IMG/VR virus record: IMGVR_UViG_3300031998_000028
Location: 1 to 64,000 of that record
Reading direction: 5' to 3' (one strand)
DNA from: a virus
Lineage: Duplodnaviria; Caudoviricetes
Length of the DNA: 64,000 nt
Part shown: in pieces, positions 1-56,880 of the stretch
Numbering within the stretch: the first letter of the stretch is position 1
How the letters are laid out: each line of letters begins with the position of its first letter
Made by a program: the position numbers and the translations under genes
The notes under the pieces: model-generated
Told to the model about the DNA's origin: nothing
Seen by the model: the letters and a program-made list of their open reading frames with translations, nothing else
The model's database searches: none

Positions 1-3000
1 AGCACTTTATCATAGTTAAAATTACCTGATAAAATGGCTGTAGATTTTAACAAAGCTTTTGTTAATGCTAATAAGGCTTTGGATGATTTTATAAGTAAGT
101 CTTCTAAAGGTATCAAAACTAAAGGTGATGCCAATGGAATTACTAAATCTTTTGAAAATGTTACAAAAGAATTAAATAATTTAGATAATTTAATGATAAA
201 ACTTCAAGGCTAGATTGGTAATGGTATTGATTTAAGTAATATTATTAAATTTGATGATACAACCAAAACAAAGTTAGAAGAAATTGGCAATGAAGTTAAT
301 GCTCTTTAGTCACAAATTGATAGTATTAATGCGGGGAAATTATCTGAATTAGAATAGGCCTTGAATGCAATTGCGACGGCAAAAGCAAAAGAGCAAGGAA
401 CTGAGGCTATAGAGTTATTTAAATAGGGAGACATAGAAGGCGCACTAAATTTATTAGACGCGGTTATAACTAAACTTGAAGCAGTAAAAAAAGCAAATGA
501 AGCTTAGGGACATAATACAGCAAATATAGAAGCTAGTCTTAGAGCTTTAGCTTCTATGCAATCTACTATTCAAAATGCATAGGAAGCTACAGCTAATTTA
601 GTAAATGAATAGAATTTAAAAATAGCAGAAGGCGCCCAAATTGCAGCAGATGCTGAACAAAATTTTGCTACAAAATTACAGTAGGCAAAGGAAGCTGCGC
701 ATGGTTTAGCGGAAGGCGCGAATGAAGCTAATGGTGCTATACGATAGGGTGTTGAAGACTAGGCAAATTTTATACATGAAATTGATCAAGTAAAATCTCG
801 TATCGCACATTTCTTTGGATTAGCTAATTCTATTAATTTAGTAAAACGTGCCATTCGTGACGCCTTTAATACAATTAAAGAGCTTGATAAAGTAATGACT
901 GAAACTGCAGTTGTTACTGATTTTTCAGTTAGTGATATGTGGTCACAGCTTCCAGAATACACAAAACGCGCAAATGAGCTTGGTGTTACTACAAAAGCTG
1001 CATATGAAGCTGCGACTCTTTATTACTAGCAAGGTTTAAAAACTAATGAAGTAAATGCACTTTCGGTTGAAACTTTGAAGATGGCACGTATTGCGGGTCT
1101 TGATGCGGCCGAGGCAACTGACCGTATGACCAATGCGCTTCGTGGCTTCAACATGGAGCTTACGGAAGCAAATGCATAGCGAGTAGACGATGTATATTCC
1201 GAACTTGCTGCAAATACTGCATCTAATGTTGATGAAATTTCAACTGCTATGACCAAAGTCGCTTCTCTTGCTAATAATGCAAATATGGAATTTGAGACAA
1301 CTGCGGCTTTCTTGGCGTAGATTATTGAGACAACTCGTGAATCGGCGGAAACGGCTGGTACGGCACTTAAAACTGTTGTAGCAAGATTTTCAGAAGTTAA
1401 AAAATTATTTGATGAAGGCCAAGTCAAGGGATAGGATTCTGAAGGCGAGATTATTGATGTAAACAAAGTATAGGCAGCTTTACGTACAGCTAATATTGAT
1501 ATGAGTAAATACTTCTTAGGAGAGGTAGGGCTTGACGATATTTTCATGGAGTTGGCTTCTAAGTGGAATTCACTCACTACGTTACAATAGAGATATATTG
1601 CAACTTAGGCTGCTGGTTCTCGTTAGCAATCTCGTTTTATCGCTATGATGTCTAACTATGCGCGCACTTAGGAGCTTGTTGGTAAAGCTTATAATTCAAC
1701 CGGCGCAGCAGAACGTCAATTTGAGAAAACATAGGAATCTCTAGAATCTAAGCTTAATCGTTTAAAGAACGCTTGGAATGAGTTCACTATGGGTCTAACA
1801 AATAATGTTATAGTTAAAGGAGCCGTTGATATATTAACAATGTTATTAAATATTGTTAATAAGCTAACAGGTGTTTTTGGCGATGCGGCCGGTTCGGTTT
1901 TAAAATTTGTTACTGCAGCTATGGCTTTTAAGGGTCTTAAAACTTTATTTATGTCTGGTGGACTTTTTGAAAACGGCCTTCTTAAAGCGTTTTCTGGTAC
2001 AGCATTAGAAACGATTTTAACAAAAATTGGTATTGGCAAAGCGGCGGAAGGAACGTTGTCTAAAGCAGCGGCTGGAGAAGGGACAACAATAGGTAAGGCT
2101 TTATTTGGTGGCATTACTACTGCTCTTAAAAGTGTTTGGGCTTCTTTTGAATCATTTGGAACATTACTTTCTGGTGGAGCGCTTACAGGAGCTACTGCTG
2201 GTTTTGCGAGTTTGGCAGTGGAAATAGGACTAGTAGTTGCTGCACTTATAGCAGCATAGGCTGCCTATAGTAAATGGCTAAAATATACTGATAAAGGGCA
2301 TATTAAAATTGCTGAAAACTATGCGAAAGCTATGCATACGGTAGCAGATAGCCTTTAGCAGTAGGCTAATCGGGCTAAAGATGCAAAGCAAAAAATTGAA
2401 GAATATAATAATAGCATATCTACAGCTGAGACTCCATAGAAACGTAATGAAGCAATTTTAGCATAGAATGAATATATTACTTCTTTATTAAAAGAAGATG
2501 CCACTTATGCTCAATATATACAACAGGTTACTTCTAGAGACGGTCAAATTTATTTGACTTTAGATTCTGCAGCTTTAGCTGATGCGGTTGATAAAATTGC
2601 GGAAGGTGCTTTAAGGGCTTCTGCATTAAGTGATATATCTGATGCGACAACTGCGTATGAAAAAGCTCAGTATTATGAAAATCAATTATAGAATGTTGAT
2701 TTAAATGGCGGCACTCGAACAGTATCTAGCGGTGGTACATCTGCTTAGGACTTAGGTAAATTAAAATGGTGGCAATTATTCGGTATGGGGCCGAGTGACT
2801 ATAGTGAAGCAAATTTTTAGACAACTCCTACCACAACTTATACTGCAGCCACTTAGGGTGAAAATGAAACATAGACGTTAACCGATGCTTAGAAGGCTCT
2901 TTATGCTTCACTTTAGAATTAGGCAACGGCTGAAAGAATATAGGCTTCAGCATTTTTAACTTCTGCTGGTACTAAATTTACCAATCTCTATGCTCCTAAT

Positions 3001-6000
3001 GCAAATTTAGATGCGTCTTAGGCCAGTTTGGTTGCTAATGCTTTTGCAAATACTTTCCAATTAGATGAAACTTTTAATAAATTAATTGATGAATATTCTA
3101 CATTTTTTCAGAAACAAAGTGAGGAATTTTTAGTATCTAGATATACTGATCTATTTGGGACCGCTCCAGAAACTAGAGATAAAGCAGAGCTAGCGCGTTC
3201 AATTGCTCAATAGGAAGCTTATGATGCCCAAGCTGGGCAAACCACCCAAAATCTTGCTAGTTTGGTAAAGGATGAAGCAGGAAGAGTTATAGTTGAGGCA
3301 TTATCTGGTTCATTTGATGGGGTAACTGAAAATCTTGGCTCTTAGCTTAGGGATGCTTATCGTAACTTAGATTCTGATTAGCAAAAAATGGTTCAACAGA
3401 TTTTAGGAGTTGAAGGTCGGCATGCATCGCAGAAGGCAATGGGCAGGTTAACTGCTCTAGGACAGGATTTAAGTAATGCAATAGATACAAATTTTATTGG
3501 CTAGCTTAGTAAGACAACTTCTTTTTCAACCAAATAGTTAGAAACTATTTCTAAAAAATTAACTGGAGCCTAGAAAAAATCACTTGCTCAAGTGGCTAAG
3601 AATTTTTCTTCTTATGGTAAAAAACTTTCTGATACTATTGTAACTGCTGCAACTAACAATATGCTGTCAGCAAACCCTGATTAGGCGGAGAATGATTTCA
3701 TTGATAAGCTTTCTAATCTTAGTGATAATCCAGTATTATTATTATAGGCCATTAATGACGCAGCCGCCAATGCTAGTGGAGAAGTTTAGAAATTAGCTAC
3801 TGATTTACAAGAAAAATTAGCAGATAATCCAGCATTTTCTTCATCTCAACAATTACAATTCTTCCTTACATCAGGTGAGTTTGAAAAAATAAATGAGCAA
3901 CTTGAAAAATTTATTGAAGAAAATGAGACAATTACACCAGAATATCTTAACGAGTTAGCGGCAAGTAGTGAAACTTTAAGTGCTTTAATAGACAATAATG
4001 TTGTCAGTATTGAAGGTCTTGCTAATATTTTAAATGGTTTATCAAGCGGCCGCATTGGTATTTTTGAATTAAGTGATTCATTAATTGATTTATATAATGA
4101 TTTTTATGACGTAGAAGGGGCTGCCACTAGAGCATATGCTACTATTAATAATTTTAAATTTAGTGGCGATGGTACTGAATTTCATTAGTATATTTAGGGC
4201 TTAATAGATAAATTAAAAGAATTACAAAAAACCGGCCAATACGGCGCGATGTCAAAATATTTAGCTGAGTTTTTTGATGATGTACCAAAAGGCGTTAAAG
4301 AAATTGACAAAGCTATTAAACTCTTAGATAAATTATAGAAGAATAATGGCGGAGATTTTTGGACTGATTTATTTGGTTTAAAATATAAGACTGGTAAAAA
4401 TGGTTAGAAAACTTTTGATTTCTAGAAAGTTATTGATTAGTTTTTAGCTAGTGGTAGTACTAACTTTAAAGATTATATAAAGAAAAAATTTAAAGATAAA
4501 TATGGCTTGAGCTTAAAAGATTCAATGATAGATGTTTTAATTGGAGATTTAGGCAGCCATAGAGATTTAAAAACAGAGATTGCTAATGCTTAGATTACCA
4601 ATACGATTAAAAAATACGTTGATGGTTTAGGAAAAGGTGTAAAGGTTGATAAAGATGCTATTAAGAAAAAGATTGCTCAAATAGCAAAACAATATAACTT
4701 AGATCCTACTGAGCTATTAAAGAATTTTCTTAATGAGAATGGTAAAAAGAGTGGTAAAGGTAAAGGTACTAAATGGAAATATAAAGGCGTTACTTTTACA
4801 CAAGACGACCTTGATATGTCTGGCATTGATTCAACCGTTACTTCTTTAGAAACGGCAGTTAATTCTGCTTTAAAAGATAAAGAAATAAGGGCTAAATTTA
4901 AAAAACTTGGTATTGATCTTTCTGATCCAAAAGCTATAAAAAAGATTGACATGAGCACACTTTTATAGGCTTTGGGCACGGATAAAGATGGCCATTTTGA
5001 TTTAGGTACTGCTTACGCAACATTATCTAATCTTGTCACTGAAGTTGGAGACGGCACATTAACTCCATAGCAATGGGTCGATCAACAATTAAATGGTCAA
5101 CCACTTAAACTAAAAGCTACTTTTGATTATGTTGGACAAGACGAGAACGGGAATTTTACAACTAAGCCTTTAGAAGTCACAGTCACAGCGGGAGATACTT
5201 CTAAATTAGAGGAAACACTAGCAGGTATTGGCGAATCGGTTCCCAATTTAGTTGAAGATATGGGCTTAGAAAATACTAAAGAACTATTAGACGAAATAGA
5301 AGGTGGCTTAGTAAACTTCGATAATACTACTCATACAATTAATGTAACATATACTAGTGCATCTGAAGCTGCAGGTGTTGCAACTAATCTTAAGAATACT
5401 TTAGCAGAAATAAATACAACTTCATATACAGCAAACGTTGACGTTAAAGCCAAAAAATCAGAATTAAAAATTACTGGCAAGAATGGTCAAGTAATTACAT
5501 TTACAATTTCAACCGCTGCACGTGGTGGAATTGTTGGGTCTTTCGCCAATGGTAATAATTCTATCTAGCCAGGACTCGCTTTGACAGGCGAAGAAGCTCC
5601 TGAGATTGTTTGGAACGCGGAAAAAGGCTATGCTTATTTAGCTGGGAAAAATGGACCGGAAATTAATAATTTAAAGCCGGGAGACCGTATTTTTAATGGG
5701 TAGTAGACAAAAGATATACTAAGACGTAGTGGTATTTCCTCTTTTAGTAAGGGAGGCATGATTCCTTCTTATGCGTTGCCGGTTCCTTGGGGTACAGATC
5801 CAACTGGGCCGGGTACTGGCACTAGATCTACAGAGAAAAAACGAGATTGGAAGAACGAATTGGATTGGCTTTACAATTTAGTTTAGGATATCGCTGAACA
5901 TATGCGTAAAGTAGATCTTTTTACATTAAAATATGATAAATATCTACATGGCACGGGTAGAAAGAGTAGTACTTTATATGACTATATTAAAAAATAGTTA

Positions 6001-7329
6001 GAACAATTAGAAGCGGCTCAAGACGATTATAACAGCGAATATAAAAAACGTGGAACCGAATTAGAAAAATTAAATAAGGCGGCTAACGACGATAAATTGG
6101 GTAAATATGTACAATATAACACAAAGGATAATACTGTTGAAATTGATTGGAAAAAAATTAATGAATTGGCCAAATCTGGTAGTGATAAAGATAAAAAGAA
6201 ATATGACACAATTGTAGAATATATTAATAAAATGGAAGCCGCAAAATCGAAGCGCGATGAAGCAGAAAAAGCTATGCTTGAAATTAATGAATAGGTATAT
6301 GAAATTAAAACGCAAATGCGTGATTCATATATTAGTTTAGAAAATCGAGTTTTAGATGCTGTAGAAACTAGTCGTTAGAATCAAATAGATAAATTATCAA
6401 AACTAAATGATAGTATTGATAATGTTAATAGTAATATTTTAAATTCTATTTAGAAAGAAATTGAATTATAGCGTTAGATTCGTGATAATACTAAAACTGA
6501 AAAAGAAATTACTGATATGGAAACACGATTAGCATTTTTGCGTAGAGACACTACAGGCTCTAATTAGGCTGAAATTTTACAATTAGAAAAATAGTTGCAA
6601 GAAGCTAGAGAGAGCTATAGTGATACCTTATTAGATCAATCTTTAGATAAATTGTCTGAAGTCAATGAGAATGCTAAAGAATAGCGCGAATAGTAGATTA
6701 ATTTACTACAAGAGCAATTAGATTATGATAAAGAAAATGGAAAATTATGGTCGGAAGTTACAACATTAATAAAGGGAGCATTTACCGGTGGTACTGTTAA
6801 AGATAAATCTAAATTAATAGATTTATTAAAAGGAACGGAATTGTATAACAGTTTAAGTAGCGCTTAGAGATCATAGTGGTCTCAAGAACTATTACAATAG
6901 CTAAAAGATGCTGGGGTTTATTTACTTTATCAAGCAGATCAAAAGAAAACAACAGGAAAGAACAGTACTACAACCGTACAAGGCAATAATGTAACTTTAG
7001 CTGGATAGTCTTCAAATACAACAGATACCACTAAAACAACTTCTGATACAACGCAATCAAATTCCAATCAAACAGTAACTAATCCTTTACCAGACAGCTA
7101 TCTTTCTAATAACAGTGATTTTATTTCATTACCAAATATAGAATCAGCAGCTATTAATGGTAATTAGACAAATAATGCTTATACTGATAATTCAACCTTT
7201 AATATTGAAATAAATGTCGGCTCTCTTAATAATGATTATGATGTAGATTAGCTAATTAATCGTATTAAAGAAGAGTTATATGACTCAGCCGCTTATCGTA
7301 ATGTTACTTCATTATCATTTATACGCTAA
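1..7329 (+). CDS. Tail tape measure protein (5'-partial, >2400 aa, TAG=Gln)
   Basis: Frame 1 appears open from base 1 to TAA at 7327-7329 when TAG is read through; track ORFs at 1789, 3028, 5260 and 6097 are all in this frame. TP901-like core (ELDKVMTETAVVT...MTKVASLANNANMEFETTAAFLAQ), Ala/Gly-rich hydrophobic segments, followed by a Dit-like gene. Confidence 0.9.
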
Positions 7330-17004: not shown

Positions 17005-18118
17005 ATTCTAATTTTCCTCCATTCAAAATTACACCAGGCGCGCTATAGAATTTTTCAAATACATCATAATTATGTTCACGTATGTATTGAAATGATTCAC
17101 GCATTTGTTCTTTTGTTACTGTTAAATGCTACCAAGGAAAAGGTTCAATATATGCGACCTTACTTGAAGAGCAGTATCCGTACAAGGTGCGGCCGCCTGG
17201 TTTTGGTAAATCTTCAATAAAAGTTTTTCCATACCAGCAATTGATAAGCTTCATAAGATTTAATAATGCTGGAGTTTGGAAAAAATCTTCATCAATATTA
17301 AGTAAAATTTTTGTTTTATATTTACGTAAAAATAAAGCTTGTTTATAAATTTGTGGTAAGACGTTTATCACGAAATCATCTTCATTCTAACATTTATATG
17401 TAAAGTTATATATGGTTTGACGTAGACTCATGGATGAATCTTCAAGAAGTTCAATAAGCTATTCATCTGTAAGTAAACCGTTATATTGAAGATAAAAGCA
17501 ATTACCCATTGGATAAATATTTAACCATTTTTTAAGGTCTTCAAAGGTATAGACATTAATAGGATATTTATTACCAATGTGGTACATAAGCCCGCGCGGT
17601 CTAGCAGTCATTATATCATAGACCATATCATAGCTATTCGGTATGGCGGCCAAGTCATAGTCATGTAGAATTACACACGGATGGCGCGGCCGCAGTCGCT
17701 CGTATGGAAAAGGAAGTATTGTTTGTCCATTTAGTGACAATCTAAAGTGAGTTGCAGTTAATAATGTCTTTATTTGCTATGCTTCCTTTTTTGTATCTCC
17801 ATAATAACTGGTATAACGTCGATATATTTCAAAATCTGGCTCTATAAGTTCTGCTTCCTATGGAAGCGTGTGATATGTCTACGAAAAGGCACGCCCGCCA
17901 TATATAACATTTGATTTTAATATGTCTGTATTATATATACCATCATCATATTCTTTACGGAAATATGCAGTAGTATACCGTTCTGGCTCAAAATTGCTAT
18001 GAAAAACAGTTACGTTTCGTTTCTTTTTAAGGTAGGCCGCGAGTTTAGCACATTCAAGATTGGGAATTACTCCAGGGTAATGGAAGTAGTCGTAGTCATA
18101 AACTAAAGCTACTCCCAT
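16973..18118 (-). CDS. Degenerate radical-SAM-like phage protein (381 aa, TAG=Gln)
   Basis: Joins track ORFs 17879, 17459 and 17129 in one frame to TAA; N-terminus DYD...PNLECAKLAAYLK...YGGRAF...PDFEIY resembles a phage radical-SAM family, but there is no CxxxCxxC. Confidence 0.6.
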
Positions 18119-21100
18119 TACGCCACCTCTACTCGTTCATGCTTAATTATAAGTCGCGCGCCGTCAACTCCAACAATTTGTTCTACTTTGTGATATGGAG
18201 TCCGGCTATATGTCTTTGCAATAAAATCATCATCTTCTCGAATACCAGTAATAATGATTTTGTTGCCGCGAGTAAACATAGATTTTTCTATAATGTGCTT
18301 TTTCCCGTCGGCGCCTCGTTCAGAGATTTGTTTGTCATATTGCTCAAATACGCCGCCATAGATTTTTACATTTACTACTCCCGTAGTTGTAAGAATTGTA
18401 ACTGTTTTCTTTGCTTTATTACGGTCGAGGACTGTACCAGCAATACGCCGCAAAGTAAAGATTGGAACTTGTTTTCCTTTAATGGGAATAACACGTTCAA
18501 CCTCTGGCGTAGTGCTCAAATCAAAGAAATCATCAATTTGATACATACTTAAATCAATATTAGCAAGTTCGTGCGGATGGGAATAAAACGACACAGAATC
18601 CATTTCCCATTTACTAATTGTGCCCGTGCAATATTTATTCCATACATCTTCAGTGAGACGATTATTCACAGCAGTTAAAAGTTCTGCATTATTTTTCTTT
18701 ACAAAAGGACGAATAATATCCATTTGCTTTTGATAGATATTATCCCATGTAGATTGTTTAATTTTGAAACCGCTTTCAGTTTCGTCAGTTTGGGTTAACA
18801 TATCTATATCAAAATTTTTCTCTATAAAATTCATAGCGATATTATCTATACCATAATATGTACTATCTAATTTCATTTTCTTTAAATATTTATTAAAATT
18901 GAAGACACGACGCTGCATATCGTATTCATCCGGAATTAATCCAAAGTCGATTAACATACGCATATTTTGTAGAGTGATGCGCTTTTTAGTATCGCTTATC
19001 ATATCTACATATTGATGCATTATGTCGGTCCGCGCGCCGAAGCCATCAAAAGCACCGGATTTAATGAGATTTATCATCTGTACTTTATTAACTTTTACTC
19101 GCGCAAGGAAATCAGATATGGATGTATATGGACGATTTGCGATTATAAGTTTTACTAAGTCTTCTCCAATACGTGAAATACCACTTATACCATAACGAAT
19201 TATATTAGCGTCCATATCAGGAGAGAATGTAAAGGTTGATTTATTGATATCTGGTGGCTCAACCGTAATGCCGCTCATACGCATTTTACCAATTGCAGTT
19301 GCTATTTTTCCATAGTTTGTTGCGGCCACTCGTTTCTTTTTCTTGCCGTCTTTCATTACAAGAACTTCTGCGGGATAACCATCACAATCCTCTTCATCAT
19401 AGGAATCTTCTACATCCTCTTCATTATCATCCTCAGCAAACTCTTCCATCTCATTAGAATAGGTTTCTTCGGTTGGGTCGAGATTAATATCCTCTTCTTC
19501 CTCTTCTTGCTCGTTGCCGCCTGCATCTGTAATCAAACAAGCACAGTTCCAAAAGATAATGGGATATTTATAAGCAAGATTCATTTCTTGAAGAGCGATT
19601 AAACTATACGCAAGAGTATGAGATTGGTTCTTTACCACACTTAGTTTCCTAAGCCAGTTAGACTGTTGTGGTCTGGACTATACCATCATCCTTATCTAAT
19701 AAGGCGTCGTTATTATAGTCTCTGAACGTCTTTCTCAAATTATTATACTTTCTATTCATTCCAAATGGTTTATTATAAACTAAAGCAATAATTTGAGAAA
19801 TTTCGCTGCGGATTATCTAATCTTTAATAATTTTACCTTACCCGTACTTTTTCTGTGCGGCCACCATATACGTTGCCGTTATAGTTTGGTTATTAAAGCT
19901 CTAAAGAACTTCCCGCAATTTAAACGATTTTTTACTATATGTTGCCATATAGGGATTCAATTAAATTCTAAATCCATAACCTTTACTCATAGCAATCAAA
20001 ACGTCCCATACATAATGTGCAAATTTAGCATTTATACCTTTCTCTGCGGTTACACGATAAAACTCCTTTGTAAGTGCGTCGTAGTCTTTAGGGTTCTTTT
20101 TTGCTATTGACTTACGGAGCTTGTCTGCCCATGTCAGTCCAAAACCGCCGAGTTCGGGAAGCTGAACAAGTTCCATGAATTGTTCCTGTGCGATACAAAG
20201 ACCATAAGACATACCGAGAACTGGTTCCAGGATTTTTTGCTCTTGCGCGCCCAGCCCATATTTTTCGATTTCACGACTCCACGCATCGGGATTTGCTTTG
20301 AAGCGCGCGAGCTTGTTGGTTGGCATTTCTCCACCTTTTTCTTGAGCCATAAGACGAATTGTAGAGTTAAGAATTGCCAAGTCGTCAACGGATGTAGGCT
20401 TCAGAGTGGCTATGCCGTTAATACCGGATTGCTTTTCCATTTGGAATAGGGATTGAATCTCATGATTCCAAACCATTTCCCACATCTTTGGGTCATCACG
20501 TTCTATATTATAAATACCAATTATATTCTCATAAGTGGCTTTAAGAGAAGGTTCGCGCTCAACTAAACCTGCATCACAAAGCAAATCAATGCAATTATGA
20601 ATCTTATCCATCGCTTCGACAGAAAGTGCATCATATTTAATGAGTGATACAGCTTCAGAGTCATGTAATTCAAACTGCGTGCAGATTGTACCATCGGGCG
20701 CGCGCATGAGAGCAGTAGATTCAGTAAAAGGTTCATCAACAAAGATTACACCGCCGGCATGAATACCAGAGCCGCAAATCAACCCCTCAATTTTTTGGGC
20801 AACATTCCACAATTCAGAGTAGTTATTCATTTCAACGATGAATTGCTTTATGGGTGGATAATCATTTTCTTCATCACCGTTATAACACTGGGATAAAGTA
20901 CGAAGCATACCGCGGTCAGCGGGAATAAGACTTGCAATATATTGAGCAATATCTACATCAATTCCCAGACCGCGCGCAGCGGTCAAAATCGCAGATTTTG
21001 ACTTTTCGGTTCGAAAGGTTGCGACATTGGCAACTCTATCTTCACCATAATATTTACGGAAAGCACTTAATACCTGAGCACGGCGGCCGCCCTCAATGTC

Positions 21101-22470
21101 AAAGTCAACATCAAGAACAGAGACACGCTCCGGATTTAGGAAACGCCAACGGAATGTACGTGTGTTTTCTCTTAATGGATTGATTTGAGTAATATCCAAA
21201 CAATATAGAAGAATAAAACCCACTCCAGAACCTCTACCACAACCGACAAGACTACCAGCCTCCCAGCAAATGTCAATAATATTTTGAAGATTTAAATAAT
21301 ATGCACTCCAGCGCGCCTTATTGACTTCTGATGATATCCATGTGTCTTCGAGACACGCATTTATTTCATCATATGCTTCTTTTGTATTAAGGTCAAAATG
21401 TCTATAAATACCATCAATAACCGCATTTACAAGATATTTGTCTGCTGCGTATTCGGATTCATAAAATGTTTTAAGCATAGGAATACGCTTAAACCACATA
21501 GGATATTCAGTATAGTAACTAAGAACGGGCTTCCATTTTAATGTAGGAATATTGAGTGGCCGCAAGAGACTATAGTCTTGAATACTATCTTTAATCTTTA
21601 AGATATTTTGATATGCAACTTGAATTTGCTCTTCTGTCATATACTTAAAGAAAGATTCAAGTTCTTCTGTCCCCATCATATAGGTAGTCGCATAGAATTC
21701 ATCTACTTCGCGCTCGCCATTCTGTGCATTAAGATACGCCTTATGAACTACTCTATCTTCTTTCTTTAAATAGTGGGAGTCAGTTGTAATAATATAAGGA
21801 ACATCATATGTTTTAGAATAATCAAGAAGTCTTTTATTTACAATAATTTGTTCACTATTTTTTGAAGGCTGCATTTCAAGATAGAAATTCCCTTCGCCAA
21901 AAAGATTCTTTAATTGAGTAATCCAAGTACCAAGTTTTGCTTCTGATGTACCTTTGAGGATTTGCGTTGGAAGCGCGCCGCCAAGGCAAGCAGTAGAGCC
22001 AATTACATGACCAGGGTCAGCACCGATAATCTCAAATAAGTCATTGTAGTATGTAGGAACTCGCCGCATACCACGAGCCATGTAACTGCGCATCCATGCT
22101 CGCGTTGAAATTTCTCGAATCTGCCGCGCGCCTACTGCGTCCTTTGCCAATAGAATAAAGTGATAATATCTATCTACTTCTCTATTATAGTTTTGTGCGT
22201 TTAAACCGTTTCTACAAAGATAAATCTCATTTCCAAGAATTACTTTAAGGTCTGGATACTTCTCTTTAAGTTTTTTAGCTGCATTTTCAGCCTTAACCCA
22301 TCCACTAATACTTTCATGGTCAGTTAAGGCTACTACTTTGTGTCCAAGTTCTCCTGCGTAATTAAATAATTCATCTATTTTGTTGATGCAGTCACGTAGA
22401 CGAATATTTGACGCTAAGAATAATCGCTATGGTTATGGAGCGATCCTGGATAACTAAGTCGATTATTCAT
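18118..22470 (-). CDS. dnaE: DNA polymerase III alpha subunit; join(22470..22417, 22408..19970, 19629..18118)
   Basis: PHP motifs LHNHSDYS / ALTDHES / GNEIY / TDSHY, GRGSGVG, LDVDFD, HAGG, KYDAL, GYGF|NQSH and OB-fold C-terminus; interrupted by an 8-nt frame disruption and a group I intron. Confidence 0.92.
19630..19969 (-). mobile_element. Group I self-splicing intron (340 nt, no ORF) in dnaE
   Basis: Exon1 ends GGATTT, which pairs with intron GAATCC (U.G at the splice site); core elements AATTGCGGGAA (P), AATCCGCAGC (Q), GTTCAGAGACTATA (R), GGTATAGTCC (S); terminal G. Removal restores GYGF-NQSH. Confidence 0.92.
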
Positions 22471-23101
22471 TAACATCACCACCTTTCATGATTTCTTCAA
22501 TAAAATAATTACTATGAGTATTTGTTTCTTTCTTAAAATTATTCCACTCTTCCATGGTCATGTCTCGTTTGTTTAAATTTTCAAAAAGAGTTAGAAATTG
22601 TAAATTATTTAATTCGTTTGTTCCCCCACGTGATTTTGGCATGATATGATCTATTGAAGGTTTTGCTAAATCATAGAAGGTCGAACTATGCAGTTGTTTT
22701 TGCCAGAAATCATAGAGTTGATTAAATTGTAACTAATAATAAAAATACTCAATATAATCGGTATATTTGTTTATATCAATATTAGTCAAATTAATTGTCC
22801 GTGTAATACTTCTATGAATAAATAAAAATTTATCGAAATCATCAAAAGAGCATAGGTATTCTTCCGTTAGAGTTTTTACACCATTTGTTGCCAAAAAAGC
22901 ATCAATTTTCCGCAGACAGCCACAAGATTTAGTATGCCTTGCACAAGTTAATAATCTCTATTCAACTTGAGTTATGTTTCCACAATCACACTAACAATAC
23001 CATTCTTTCCTTCTTCCGGCATTTCTTCTTTTGTCTACAGGAACTAGAGAGAGCACGGTTAATCTTCCTATTCTCTAATTAGTTAAATCTTTTCCCTACA
23101 T
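22463..23101 (-). CDS. Free-standing HNH homing endonuclease (212 aa, TAG=Gln)
   Basis: MQGKDLTNQRIGRLTV...WYCQCDCG...SCGC and SIDHIMPKSRGGTNELNNLQFLTLFENLNK; 5 in-frame TAG including codon 2; stop overlaps the dnaE start region. Confidence 0.85.
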
Positions 23102-23102
23102 A

Positions 23103-23291
23103 TTAATTCACAAAAGACCCAGAGTCAATAATAACTCCATTTTCTTCTAGTACAAATCTAATATTTTTAGTATTATTTTTAAAACTATACTCCATTATAA
23201 GTTCATCATAATGGTCGTAAGCTTCATTTATATCATCAGTTTCAAAAGAATTTAATGTTAATAGATTTGGTGAATATACTTTATACCTCAT
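23103..23291 (-). CDS. Hypothetical protein
   Basis: AAGGAG SD, directly downstream of a consensus promoter. Confidence 0.65.
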   Translation of the reverse strand: MRYKVYSPNLLTLNSFETDDINEAYDHYDELIMEYSFKNNTKNIRFVLEENGVIIDSGSFVN

Positions 23292-23324
23292 TCAATCACG
23301 CTCCTTTTCCTATTTTCTATAATA

Positions 23325-23353
23325 ATTATACCATAAATTCAAACAAAAGTCAA
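23325..23353 (-). promoter_or_regulatory. sigmaA-type promoter for the HNH/dnaE/nrd operon
   Basis: TTGACT-N17-TATAAT with extended TG. Confidence 0.8.
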
Positions 23354-55914: not shown

Positions 55915-56880
55915 ATGTATATATTTTTTTCTATTTTGATATTTATTATAGGTATAATATTTTTTATTATTGGTATCAAAAAGTAGAGTCAAGACCTAAT
56001 AAAACTTGAAAAAACTAAAAGTGAATATTTAGAAAATCGTATTAAAGATACCATAAAACGTTGTAATGATTTAGAGCAATTACATAAATAGTTAGAACTA
56101 TAGCGCGATGCCACATTACGAGAATAGCTAATTGAGAAGTAGCATTTAGAAGATCTCCGTAAGCATAGTCATGAGTTACTCTTATCTGAACGAGAACGTA
56201 TTGATACAGAGATAAAAATGACACGCCACCAAAAAATGGAAGAACTCCGAAAGGAATATGATAATTAGCGAGTCCTTTTAGAGCATAATTTTCTTTAGCG
56301 TCGTGATGATATTAATAAATAGCTTGAGACTTGTTAGAATGAATTAAAGGCATTTTAGGATATTTAGGCTTCTATTAATGAAGCCGCGCGCCGTAAGCGT
56401 GAGATAGAAGAACAAGAATCATTCTATTCTATTGATGTTTCTGAAAATGATAGAGAGGATATCTCTGTACTTTAGTCTATGGATACTCGACTACATAATA
56501 GAGATGTAATACCTAAGCTCATATGGGAATTATTTATACGGCGCCCGACCCAAGAGATGATTAAACGCGTGGTTGGTAATGAAAAGGCGAGCGGTATTTA
56601 TAAAATTACCTATAAGAATACAGGAGAAGCGTACATTGGTAAGACGACAGATTTTGCAACTCGATGGCAGAATCATATCAAGACCGCTATTGGACTTGAA
56701 GGAGCTGCGAGAGCTACACTTCATAATCGTATGGCAAAAGATGGTATCTGGAATTACACTTTTGAAATATTAGAACGAGTAGATAAAGAGTCTCTCGCAT
56801 CACGAGAGTCTTATTATATTAATCTATATGGAACAAAATCACAACTCAATATGAAAGAAGGGAATAAAAATGGAACTTAG
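55915..56880 (+). CDS. Membrane-anchored coiled-coil protein with C-terminal GIY-YIG nuclease domain (321 aa, TAG=Gln)
   Basis: GGAGG SD; MYIFFSILIFIIGIIFFIIGI TM helix; TAG-rich coiled coil; SGIYKIT...AYIGKT...RWQNH...E...LN. Confidence 0.8.

What the first reader, a model, noticed from the sequence alone, without database searches (positions are those of the whole stretch)
22400..22470. Candidate TAG-triggered ribosomal hop (or frameshift) needed to make DNA polymerase
Seen (minus strand): ATG at 22470 with a GGTGGTG SD reads MNNRLSYPGSLHNHSDYS, then TCT TAG CG TCA AAT ATT CGT, and DnaE continues (NIRLRDC...ALTDHES) in the -1/+2 frame. That frame has a TAA shortly upstream and no ATG/GTG/TTG until 22150. 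The zero frame dies at a TAA about 30 codons later even with TAG=Gln. Skipping exactly 8 nt gives a clean PHP motif, HNHSDYS-NIRLRD. The layout is Ser codon (TCT), stop codon, 2 nt, Ser codon (TCA): a take-off/stop/landing arrangement as in stop-hopping and T4 gene 60 bypassing. Inference: if hopping needs a slow, unsuppressed UAG, polymerase would be made before the code switch and shut off once UAG is decoded as Gln. That would be an inverse recoding switch. Alternatives: a remnant of a deleted group I intron (TAT|TCTTAGCG|TCA has the U...G boundaries), an endonuclease repair scar next to the HNH gene, or an assembly error.
Basis: partly seen in the sequence, partly recalled or inferred. Interest (0 to 1): 0.85.

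Follow-up and report, generated by a model that had tools for sequence, protein, structure and literature searches.

The report
Ribosome-hop gap in phage dnaE
The only DNA polymerase gene of this uncultured rumen phage is broken after 18 codons by 8 real bases that begin with a stop codon and came in with a selfish nuclease gene; 21 natural variants in related phages suggest that ribosomes hop over such gaps, a very rare way of reading a gene that has not been tested at the bench.

Summary
On the minus strand, ATG 22470 opens MNNRLSYPGSLHNHSDYS, then TCT-TAG-CG-TCA, and DnaE continues 8 nt out of register.

The 8 nt are real: four IMG/VR contigs and a Logan contig from another sample carry them.

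Of 78 related dnaE loci, 54 are uninterrupted (...HNHSDY-SNIRLRD) and 24 carry short gaps. With pattern scans there are 21 distinct variants at two main sites: shifts of 6, 7, 8, 10 and 11 nt after D-Y/F, and 4, 5, 8, 9, 10 and 11 nt inside H-N|H.

Each variant reads sense codon, stop (TAG, TGA or TAA), 0-5 nt, then a codon for the same tRNA. All three frame relations occur. One variant has both ±1 paths blocked by stops.

Gaps travel with homing-endonuclease genes: HNH with the first site, GIY-YIG with the second, none beside intact loci. They are scattered over the DnaE tree.

Best reading (about 0.7): short translational bypass, a miniature analogue of T4 gene 60/mobA.

Apparently unrecoded relatives, and TGA or TAA gaps, show it is not the reason the gap exists.

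This scan has noted the same kind of gap before on other DNA. I found no published report.

The parts
23325..23353 (-). Sigma-70-like promoter, TTGACT-17-TATAAT with an upstream TG. In uninterrupted relatives the same region sits directly before dnaE.
   Evidence: 11 of 12 matches; homology with L004 runs up to the position of its dnaE start.
23103..23291 (-). orf62, a small ORF of unknown function. It is the first gene of the cassette and starts where dnaE starts in uninterrupted relatives.
   Evidence: no Pfam match.
22463..23101 (-). Free-standing HNH homing endonuclease gene, 212 aa with 5 in-frame TAG read as Gln. Its end overlaps the dnaE start.
   Evidence: Pfam HNH 22.0 bits against a cut-off of 21.4, and PHROG 374. 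TAG codons align with Gln in homologues at 4 of 5 positions. Homologues of 45-77% identity lie directly before dnaE only in loci with the site-B gap.
22475..22483 (-). Shine-Dalgarno sequence GGTGGTGAT of dnaE, inside the end of the HNH ORF.
   Evidence: Read from the sequence.
22417..22470 (-). dnaE mini-ORF of 18 codons, MNNRLSYPGSLHNHSDYS. It carries the HxH of the PHP domain, and its last codon, TCT (22419-22417), is the proposed take-off codon.
   Evidence: Purifying selection on this peptide among gap-bearing loci: pS 0.68 against pN 0.13. TCT is invariant in 12 of 12 site-B loci.
22412..22416 (-). Untranslated gap: stop TAG (22416-22414) plus CG (22413-22412). Counting the duplicated Ser codon, the insert is 8 nt.
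22409..22411 (-). Proposed landing codon TCA. Decoding would resume at AAT 22408-22406.
   Evidence: The landing codon is UCN in 8 of 9 site-B variants, whereas about half of the uninterrupted loci use AGY here.
19970..22408 (-). dnaE exon 1 after the gap (PHP, polymerase core, fingers), with no TAG.
   Evidence: dN/dS is 0.05 against L001.
19630..19969 (-). ORF-less group I intron of about 340 nt, inserted between GYGF and NQSH of dnaE.
   Evidence: Rfam RF00028, 50.6 bits, E 3.5e-11. Absent from the 95%-identical L001.
18118..19629 (-). dnaE exon 2 (HhH and C-terminal part), in frame with the ORF 18118-19689.
22400..23289 (-). Extent of the mobile cassette: orf62, HNH, SD, 18 dnaE codons, the gap, and about 4 codons after the landing codon.
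   Evidence: BLAST against L001, which holds a different cassette at the same place, and against uninterrupted L004. Homology breaks at 23289-23314 and resumes at 22399-22408.

Best explanation
The 8 nt are the coding gap of a homing-endonuclease cassette (window about 23289-22400: orf62, the HNH gene, an SD, a replacement 5' end of dnaE, and the gap). The cassette sits between recJ and dnaE.

Proposed mechanism (inferred). Ribosomes start at ATG 22470 and make 18 residues. With peptidyl-tRNA-Ser on UCU in the P site and the stop UAG in the A site, the tRNA lets go of the mRNA. The mRNA slips 8 nt, the tRNA re-pairs with UCA, and decoding resumes at AAU. The product is the canonical ...HNHSDYS-NIRLRD... 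DnaE. Together with splicing of the group I intron at 19969-19630, this yields one polymerase of about 1334 aa.

Proposed purpose of the gap (inferred by analogy with T4 mobA/gene 60). It breaks the nuclease's target in a stretch of dnaE that cannot change at the protein level, so the carrier genome is immune to its own HNH enzyme.

Shown here: the gap is real; the cassette is mobile and tied to the nuclease; both the mini-ORF and the body are under purifying selection; and the gaps in relatives keep the codon-stop-codon layout in all three frame relations.

Not shown: the hop itself, its efficiency, and cleavage or immunity.
For: 1. Uninterrupted relatives give exactly the hop product: 54 of 78 loci read ...H-N-H-(S/T)-x-(Y/F)-S-N-x-R-L-R-D with no length variation.

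2. There are 21 distinct gap variants.
- Site B: TCT + TAG/TGA/TAA + 0-5 nt + TCA/TCT/TCC (once ACT), with shifts of 6, 7, 8, 10 and 11 nt.
- Site C: AAC/AAT + stop + spacer + AAC/AAT (twice AGC), with shifts of 4, 5, 8, 9, 10 and 11 nt.
- Site D: CAT TAG TT CAA.
- The shift modulo 3 takes the values 0, 1 and 2 at both main sites. A landing set by re-pairing predicts this; a fixed frameshift does not.

3. In TCT TAG GTGA TCC (L049/L078) the zero frame stops at TAG and the body frame has TGA directly before TCC. No single ±1 shift can join them.

4. Site C lies inside the HxH motif, so any frameshift product would break H-x-H.

5. The take-off codon TCT is invariant, and the landing codon stays in the UCN box. 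Other Ser codons of the mini-ORF vary (AGT/TCT/TCG), and about half of the uninterrupted loci use AGY at the landing position.

6. Selection.
- Body dN/dS is 0.03-0.10 between gap-bearing loci.
- Mini-ORF: pS 0.68 against pN 0.13 at site B, and 0.48 against 0.04 at site C.
- The 11 nt TCTTAGCGTCA are identical in three lineages whose flanking synonymous codons differ in 29-62% of cases.

7. dnaE is the only replicative polymerase found in this genome, which CheckV rates 96% complete. Gap-bearing dnaE also occurs in records rated 100% complete (G002, G003, G005), two of them with direct terminal repeats.

8. Mobility and the link to the nuclease.
- An HNH or GIY-YIG homologue lies within 150 nt before dnaE in 16 of 23 gap-bearing loci and in 0 of 54 uninterrupted ones (Fisher 2e-11).
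- Of 11 phylogenetically independent pairs, about 7.5 go the same way and none the other (sign-test p about 0.016).
- HNH occurs only with site B, and GIY-YIG only with sites C and D.
- At least 11 gains or losses are needed on the DnaE tree.
- The window and L001 share 90% DNA identity on both sides but hold different cassettes.

9. Precedent. The mobA/gene 60 bypass cassette protects against MobA (bioRxiv 10.1101/2022.08.31.505936). Synthetic stop-hops over matched codons work in E. coli, and shorter natural counterparts were 'long presumed' (PMC5009743).
Against: - There is no RNA, protein or reporter evidence.
- For the window's own 8-nt variant the body frame is open from 22426, so a -1 shift on U-UCU would give DYS-LA-SNIR, which sequence alone does not exclude. 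Site B lies where Thermus Pol III alpha is 3 residues shorter, so extra residues there might be tolerated.
- The window lacks the known stimulators of gene 60: no take-off hairpin (MFE -4.4 against -3.0 in uninterrupted loci), no SD-like element in the gap, and a nascent chain of only 18 aa. Efficiency may therefore be low.
- Three variants have near-cognate rather than cognate landing codons (ACT, and AGC twice).
- Many variants descend from a few founder insertions, so they are not 21 independent trials.
- The immunity role rests on association and analogy only.
Confidence: 0.7

Rival explanations
1. A conventional -1 (or +2) ribosomal frameshift at U-UCU-UAG gives DnaE three extra residues (…DYS-LA-SNIR…). 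Other variants would each use whatever shift or read-through fits their length.
For: - In the window the body frame is open from 22426, so a single -1 shift is formally possible.
- tRNA-Ser could re-pair on UUC with one G-U pair (inference).
- Site B coincides with a 3-residue length difference against Thermus Pol III alpha.
Against: - There is no X-XXY-YYZ heptamer and no downstream structure.
- It needs a different mechanism for each length class.
- It is impossible for TCT TAG GTGA TCC.
- It would destroy HxH at site C.
- It does not explain the matched flanking codons or the invariant TCT.
- The 54 uninterrupted relatives show no length variation here.
Confidence: 0.12
2. The 8 nt are removed or bypassed at the RNA level, by an unknown micro-splicing or editing step, so ribosomes read a continuous mRNA.
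For: The same gene does hold a true self-splicing intron. No RNA data exist to exclude this.
Against: - No known ribozyme or enzyme removes 4-11 nt with these boundaries.
- There is no Rfam match at the site.
- It does not explain why every gap starts with a stop codon right after a sense codon that is repeated, in tRNA terms, at its end.
Confidence: 0.05
3. The gap inactivates or truncates DnaE. The mini-ORF is a dead remnant, and the polymerase is either made from an internal start without the HxH motif or not needed.
For: A stop codon after 18 codons is what table 11 reads. The host polymerase could in principle replicate the phage.
Against: - Body dN/dS is 0.03-0.10, and the mini-ORF is itself under purifying selection.
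- There is no start codon in the body frame before TTG 22150, about 87 codons into the PHP domain.
- Gaps persist in records rated complete and across deep divergence.
- No other polymerase is found in the genome.
Confidence: 0.05
4. The UAG gap is above all a timing device. Early on, UAG is a slow stop and ribosomes hop, making DnaE. Once the phage tRNA(CUA) reads UAG as Gln, ribosomes run on in the zero frame to TAA and DnaE synthesis stops, while the TAG-laden HNH gene is switched on.
For: - The genome encodes tRNA(CUA) at 72880-72955.
- TAG aligns with Gln in homologues, and late genes are full of TAG.
- The dnaE body has none.
- HNH has TAG at codons 2 and 9.
- Every gap-bearing locus in the window's clade of the DnaE tree, the clade that holds the relatives with TAG inside their Dit gene, uses TAG as its gap stop.
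Against: - The same gaps occur with TGA and TAA, and in relatives whose Dit gene has no in-frame TAG.
- The recoded clade's TAG gaps trace to only two founder types, so they carry no statistical weight.
- The link to nucleases explains the gap without any timing role.
- This is a consequence layered on the hop, not an alternative to it.
Confidence: 0.25
5. Sequencing or assembly artefact.
For: None, beyond the general possibility in metagenome assemblies.
Against: The identical 8 nt occur in four IMG/VR contigs from four metagenomes, and in Logan contigs of two samples without a gap. Twenty further variants are present in dozens of contigs.
Confidence: 0.01

Closest known systems
Phage T4 gene 60 translational bypass within the MobA homing-endonuclease element (Huang 1988 and Bonocora 2011 from my own knowledge; Manning & Atkins, bioRxiv 10.1101/2022.08.31.505936, read)
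   Same: [quoted passage not shown]
- A stop codon directly 3' of take-off.
- The gap lies in a highly conserved coding stretch of an essential replication gene.
- The gap travels with a free-standing homing endonuclease gene placed just upstream.
- The nuclease can be lost while the gap stays, or be replaced by another nuclease family (here HNH, GIY-YIG, Vsr-like).
- Sporadic distribution that points to repeated transfer.
   Different: - The gap is 4-11 nt, not 50.
- The gene is dnaE, not the topoisomerase.
- The gap lies after only 12-18 codons, so a gene 60-type nascent-peptide signal 25-30 residues back is impossible.
- The window has no take-off hairpin and no internal SD.
- There are two to three gap sites, each tied to its own nuclease family.
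- The host gene is not split into two ORFs with new tails.
- In this phage the gap's stop codon is one that the phage later reads as Gln.
- No sequence homology to the gene 60 cassette was tested or is claimed.
Synthetic 'stop-hops' and spontaneous short bypassing in E. coli (Weiss 1987 and Gallant and Lindsley from my own knowledge; summarised in PMC5009743)
   Same: A peptidyl-tRNA leaves a codon next to a stop or a hungry codon and re-pairs at a matched codon a few nucleotides downstream, independent of frame.
   Different: Those were engineered or accidental, and inefficient. The review states that no natural in-frame stop-hop is known, and that shorter natural counterparts of gene 60 were only presumed. 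Here the layout is natural, conserved and required for an essential gene.
Magnusiomyces capitatus mitochondrial 'byps' (cited)
   Same: - Many short inserts in essential genes that must be bypassed.
[quoted passage not shown]
- Spread like mobile elements.
   Different: - Those are 27-55 nt GC-cluster-like inserts.
- They use an unused sense codon rather than a stop in the A site.
- They depend on a relaxed mitochondrial translation system.
- They have no link to homing endonucleases.
prfB (RF2) +1 frameshift at CUU-UGA
   Same: A stop codon in the A site provides the pause. The +4 variants (AAT-T-AAC) look superficially similar.
   Different: - prfB shifts by one base onto an overlapping codon and needs an SD 3 nt upstream.
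- It is autoregulatory.
- Here most shifts are 5-11 nt onto non-overlapping codons.
Intron or intein protection of homing-endonuclease targets, including 'collaborative homing' of a free-standing nuclease with an ORF-less intron (from my own knowledge)
   Same: An insertion in the target site makes the carrier immune without harming the protein. This same dnaE also holds an ORF-less group I intron.
   Different: - Here the insertion would be dealt with by the ribosome, not by RNA or protein splicing.
- HNH co-occurs with the gap in all homologue-bearing loci, but with the intron only in the window.

Membership tests
Programmed translational bypassing (gene 60 type) | Take-off and landing codons readable by the same peptidyl-tRNA, with resumption at the next codon restoring the protein | tested here: met
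   Window: UCU...UCA, then AAU, gives the DYS-NIR found in 54 uninterrupted relatives. The landing codon is cognate in 17 of 20 site-B and site-C variants and near-cognate (two of three positions) in the other three and in the one site-D variant.
Programmed translational bypassing (gene 60 type) | A slow-to-decode codon (stop) directly 3' of the take-off codon | tested here: met
   TAG in the window; TAG, TGA or TAA in every variant.
Programmed translational bypassing (gene 60 type) | Landing independent of reading frame | tested here: met
   Shift modulo 3 takes the values 0, 1 and 2 at both sites B and C within related cassettes.
Programmed translational bypassing (gene 60 type) | Take-off stem-loop that includes the take-off codon | tested here: not met
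   Window: MFE -4.4 kcal/mol, like uninterrupted loci (mean -3.0). A 10-12 bp hairpin starting at UCU exists only in L023, L032, L053/54 and L062.
Programmed translational bypassing (gene 60 type) | Nascent-peptide signal and an internal SD 5' of the landing site | tested here: not met
   Only 18 residues have been made at take-off. The window gap (TAGCG) has no SD-like run. Some relatives have GGTG or GAGG in the gap, but only 0-1 nt from the landing codon.
Programmed translational bypassing (gene 60 type) | One polypeptide made from the two ORFs | not testable with these tools
   No RNA holder is listed and no proteomics is available. Needs a reporter or mass spectrometry.
Homing-endonuclease cassette with a target-site-disrupting insert (mobA-like) | Free-standing endonuclease gene next to the interrupted gene | tested here: met
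   The HNH gene 22463-23101 overlaps the dnaE start. A nuclease lies adjacent in 16 of 23 gap-bearing loci and 0 of 54 uninterrupted ones.
Homing-endonuclease cassette with a target-site-disrupting insert (mobA-like) | Sporadic, tree-incongruent distribution; the cassette is exchanged as a block | tested here: met
   At least 11 changes on well-supported branches. The window and L001 are 90% identical on both flanks but hold different cassettes with sharp borders.
Homing-endonuclease cassette with a target-site-disrupting insert (mobA-like) | The nuclease cuts the gap-less allele, and the gap protects | not testable with these tools
   Inferred only, from the one-to-one pairing of nuclease family with gap site.
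-1 programmed ribosomal frameshift | Slippery heptamer X-XXY-YYZ with a downstream stimulatory structure | tested here: not met
   The sequence GAU UAU UCU UAG is not such a heptamer, and there is no significant local structure (z = -1.1).
Group I intron (or a remnant) at 22412-22419 | Match to the group I core | tested here: not met
   Rfam at E <= 1 over 19400-22700 finds only the intron at 19660-19979.
HNH endonuclease (Pfam PF01844) | Score above the curated cut-off; catalytic H...N...N/H motif | tested here: met
   22.0 bits against a cut-off of 21.4, which is marginal. It is backed by PHROG 374 (E 7e-16) and by the motif DHIMPKSRGGTNELNNLQFL read from the translation.

The most novel reading that the evidence does not exclude
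In this TAG-to-Gln recoded phage the gap's UAG couples two programmes to the code switch. Before tRNA(CUA) appears, ribosomes hop and make the polymerase, while the HNH gene (TAG at codons 2 and 9) stays silent. After the switch, UAG is read as Gln, the dnaE ribosomes run into TAA after 48 aa, and the nuclease is made. That would be a translational bypass acting as a temporal switch set by a change of genetic code.
Probability: 0.25. Interest if true: 0.92.

Novelty: new variant of a known kind. Interest (0 to 1): 0.85.

Why it matters
Natural translational bypassing is known with confidence only from T4 gene 60 and its homologues and from one yeast mitochondrial lineage. Reviews say that shorter counterparts were 'long presumed' but never found, and that no natural stop-hop is known (PMC5009743; 10.1101/2022.08.31.505936).

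This locus and its relatives offer a natural series of 4-11 nt gaps. They use three stop codons, several spacers, cognate and near-cognate landing codons, and come with and without hairpins, all in one essential gene. That is a ready-made mutational series for asking what a ribosome needs in order to hop a short distance.

It also points to a third way, besides introns and inteins, for homing endonucleases to protect their own genome. And it means gene callers will mis-annotate such polymerases as broken.

The recoded-TAG context adds a testable link between bypassing and phage code switching.

Tried and rejected
- **RNA evidence.** No RNA holder is listed for this stretch, so expression and RNA-level removal could not be examined. 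Read laying returned contigs only, and no 99%-identical Logan contig spanning the whole stretch was listed.
- **INPHARED search at DNA level.** No match.
- **Cultured relatives.** They are only about 40% identical (phages of Firmicutes such as Staphylococcus, Bacillus and Enterocloster, plus Arcanobacterium). The one I opened, Enterocloster phage PMBT24, has an HNH gene before dnaE but an uninterrupted 5' end. I found no cultured example, but did not check all 122 records.
- **First pattern scans.** Both were corrected.
- **tRNA-Ser(AGA) link.** I asked whether this phage tRNA travels with the UCU take-off codon. A BLAST of the tRNA against ten relatives' records found nothing in either group. 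BLAST of a tRNA is insensitive, so this is inconclusive.
- **Genetic code of relatives from summed ORF length.** Too noisy. A tail-fibre-like query was not conserved. The Dit protein worked, but one gene without TAG does not prove a standard code.
- **A conserved RNA structure around the gap.** A take-off hairpin exists in four variants only. The window has a 7-bp hairpin ending 2 nt before UCU, but it is not conserved in L003, so I draw no conclusion.
- **Other overlapping ORF pairs in the window (dnaB region).** These are ordinary.
- **Reinitiation after termination.** Rejected: there is no conserved start-like codon after the gap, and the product would lack HxH.
- **Collaborative homing of HNH with the group I intron.** Rejected as the main link: HNH homologues co-occur with the gap everywhere, but with the intron only in the window.
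Full report
**1. The observation**

- ATG 22470 follows the SD GGTGGTGAT and opens MNNRLSYPGSLHNHSDYS.
- Codon 18 is TCT (22419-22417). Then come TAG (22416-22414), CG, TCA (22411-22409) and AAT ATT CGT..., which reads NIRLRDC...ALTDHES.
- The downstream frame matches Pfam PHP only from profile position 8, then DNA_pol3_alpha and the finger domain. Uninterrupted relatives match PHP from position 2. The mini-ORF therefore supplies the HxH start of the domain.
- The body frame has no start codon before TTG 22150.
- With TAG read as Gln, the zero frame ends at TAA after 48 aa.
- The bare pattern TCN-TAG-NN-TCN is no rarer than chance. Its position is what counts.

**2. Context**

The window belongs to a phage contig of 114,915 bp, which CheckV rates 96% complete. 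The phage reads TAG as a sense codon.
- Late genes are full of in-frame TAG, for example 75 in the 2442-aa ORF at 1-7329.
- The genome encodes a tRNA with anticodon CUA.
- The five TAGs of the HNH gene align with Gln in homologues at four positions.

The dnaE body has no TAG. dnaE is the only replicative polymerase found; there is no family A or family B polymerase.

**3. The 8 nt are real**

The identical TCTTAGCGTCA occurs in L003/L046, L007 and L012, from four metagenomes. Logan contigs of the source sample and of an unrelated sample cross the site without a gap. The source sample also holds a close relative carrying a different gap, AAC-TAG-GGTG-AAC, seen as a loose end at 22408.

**4. Relatives**

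Eighty IMG/VR loci encode DnaE at 49-95% identity.

Of 78 usable loci, counting the window, 54 read straight through as M..YPGSLHNH(S/T)x(Y/F)SNxRLRD with no length variation. The other 24 are interrupted. Two pattern scans added more. Together they give 21 distinct variants.

| Site | Position | Layout | Shifts (nt) |
|---|---|---|---|
| B | after D-Y/F | TCT + TAG/TGA/TAA + 0-5 nt + TCA/TCT/TCC (once ACT) | 6, 7, 8, 10, 11 |
| C | between N and the second H of HxH | AAC/AAT + stop + spacer + AAC/AAT (twice AGC) | 4, 5, 8, 9, 10, 11 |
| D | one locus | CAT TAG TT CAA | 8 |

In every case, dropping the bases from the stop through the second codon restores the canonical protein.

**5. Why a hop rather than a frameshift**

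- The same cassette lineages include gaps whose length modulo 3 is 0, 1 and 2. This is expected if the landing is set by re-pairing of the anticodon, and not if the shift is fixed.
- In TCT TAG GTGA TCC the zero frame ends at TAG and the body frame has TGA right before TCC, so no single ±1 shift can join them.
- Site C lies inside H-x-H. Any frameshift product would put two or three residues into that motif.
- The take-off codon is TCT in all 12 site-B loci, while other Ser codons of the mini-ORF vary between AGT, TCT and TCG. The landing codon stays in the UCN box, although about half of the uninterrupted loci use AGY there.

Selection points the same way.
- The body has dN/dS of 0.03-0.10 between gap-bearing loci.
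- The mini-ORF has pS 0.68 against pN 0.13 at site B, and 0.48 against 0.04 at site C.
- The 11 nt TCTTAGCGTCA are unchanged in three lineages whose neighbouring synonymous codons differ in 29-62% of cases.
- Gap-bearing dnaE occurs in records rated 100% complete, two of them with direct terminal repeats.

Caveat. For the window's own 8-nt form, a -1 shift giving DYS-LA-SNIR is not excluded by sequence. Site B also coincides with a 3-residue length difference against Thermus Pol III alpha (HLHQHTQFS---LLDG).

**6. The gap is part of a mobile nuclease cassette**

BLAST against L001 shows 90% DNA identity on both flanks, yet the window holds 914 nt (23313-22400) where L001 holds an unrelated 883 nt. 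L001 carries a GIY-YIG gene and a site-C gap. Uninterrupted L004 has only its first 16 dnaE codons there.

The window cassette therefore runs from about 23289 to 22400. It contains orf62, which now sits on the ancestral dnaE promoter TTGACT-17-TATAAT. It also contains the HNH gene, a new SD, a replacement 5' end of dnaE, the gap, and about four codons beyond it.

The nuclease families pair with the gap sites.
- Homologues of the HNH protein lie 50-76 nt before the landing codon only in site-B loci.
- GIY-YIG homologues lie 59-146 nt before it only in site-C and site-D loci.
- Neither lies within 150 nt of dnaE in any of the 54 uninterrupted loci.

The counts are 16 of 23 against 0 of 54 (Fisher 2e-11). 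Of 11 phylogenetically independent pairs, about 7.5 go the same way and none the other.

Decay and replacement also occur.
- Some loci keep the gap but have lost the nuclease, leaving only its last codons (L007/L012, L002, L005, L033).
- L032 (site B) and L038 (site C) carry the same Vsr-like nuclease instead.

On the DnaE tree the cassettes are scattered, needing at least 11 changes on well-supported branches. The window's nearest relatives, L001 and L013 at 95% identity, carry the other cassette.

**7. Mechanism**

Most likely, peptidyl-tRNA-Ser leaves UCU while UAG waits in the A site, the mRNA slips 8 nt, and the tRNA re-pairs with UCA.

The known gene 60 stimulators are absent in the window. 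There is no take-off hairpin, no SD in the gap, and the nascent chain is only 18 aa. Four relatives do have a 10-12 bp hairpin that starts at the take-off codon.

Efficiency may be low. Two features may make that affordable: the hop comes very early in the gene, so abortive products are cheap, and the SD is strong. These points are inference.

The immunity role is inferred from the pairing of nuclease family with gap site, and from the mobA precedent.

**8. The code-switch idea**

In this phage the gap's stop is the reassigned codon, and the HNH gene has TAG at codons 2 and 9. Once tRNA(CUA) is active, UAG should be read through. dnaE ribosomes would then be lost to the zero frame while HNH becomes translatable. 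This is a reasonable consequence.

Three points limit it.
- The relatives L009, L088 (the contig of L012) and L089 have in-frame TAG in their Dit gene. L078, L085, L086, L053 and L041 do not, yet those five carry gaps.
- Gaps also use TGA and TAA.
- Every gap-bearing locus in the window's clade of the DnaE tree, which holds the TAG-recoded L009 and L012, uses TAG as its gap stop. These gaps trace to only two founder types.

**9. Known or new**

The held literature has T4 gene 60/mobA and its homologues, the Magnusiomyces byps, and a candidate Streptomyces phage case. It states that the gene 60 cassette 'remains unique', and that shorter natural counterparts were presumed but not known. I found no report of short gaps in phage dnaE.

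Notes of this scan describe the same kind of gap on other genomes, including the DnaE PHP motif. They agree with this report but are not independent evidence.

**10. Verdict**

- The hop reading is the best supported (about 0.7) but untested.
- The cassette context is well supported.
- The code-switch role is open (about 0.25).

Noticed in passing
window 19630-19969 (-): ORF-less group I intron (Rfam RF00028, 50.6 bits) between GYGF and NQSH of the same dnaE. It is absent from the 95%-identical L001. L060 and L033 are also broken at this motif.
   Followed up: partly
genome G000:C1:80271-80355 (outside the window): The phage encodes a tRNA-Ser with anticodon AGA, which is unusual for bacteria. 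If its A34 were converted to inosine it would read UCU, UCC and UCA, exactly the take-off and landing codons seen at site B. A BLAST search in ten relatives found nothing, so a link is neither shown nor excluded.
   Followed up: partly
window 23103-23291 (-): A 62-aa ORF with no family match now occupies the start position and promoter of ancestral dnaE, as the first gene of the cassette.
   Followed up: partly
window 55915-56883 (+): Another homing endonuclease gene (GIY-YIG, PHROG 314/5123) with 13 in-frame TAG. The genome is rich in selfish nucleases that depend on the recoded codon.
   Followed up: no
L066:2925-3000: The dnaE of this relative has no gap at sites B or C, but its only SD-linked ATG is in the +2 frame relative to YPGSVHNH, and no in-frame start lies nearby. 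This may be another recoding or gap site further 5'.
   Followed up: no
L002:3100-3115: In-frame TAG at a conserved Trp position of the dnaE body (TGG in all other loci) in an otherwise TAG-free gene. It may be an error, a pseudogene, or TAG read as a residue.
   Followed up: no
L032:949-1929 and L038 (133 nt before dnaE): The same Vsr-like/DUF2726 nuclease (98% identical), with repeated N-terminal DNA-binding modules, sits before a site-B gap in one phage and a site-C gap in another. This suggests nuclease replacement on resident gaps.
   Followed up: partly
L023, L032, L053, L062 around the gap: In these variants the gap and landing codon form the 5' arm of a 10-12 bp hairpin whose 3' arm is the RLRD coding sequence. 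This could be a selected take-off hairpin, or a trace of templated (snap-back) repair at the origin of the insert.
   Followed up: partly
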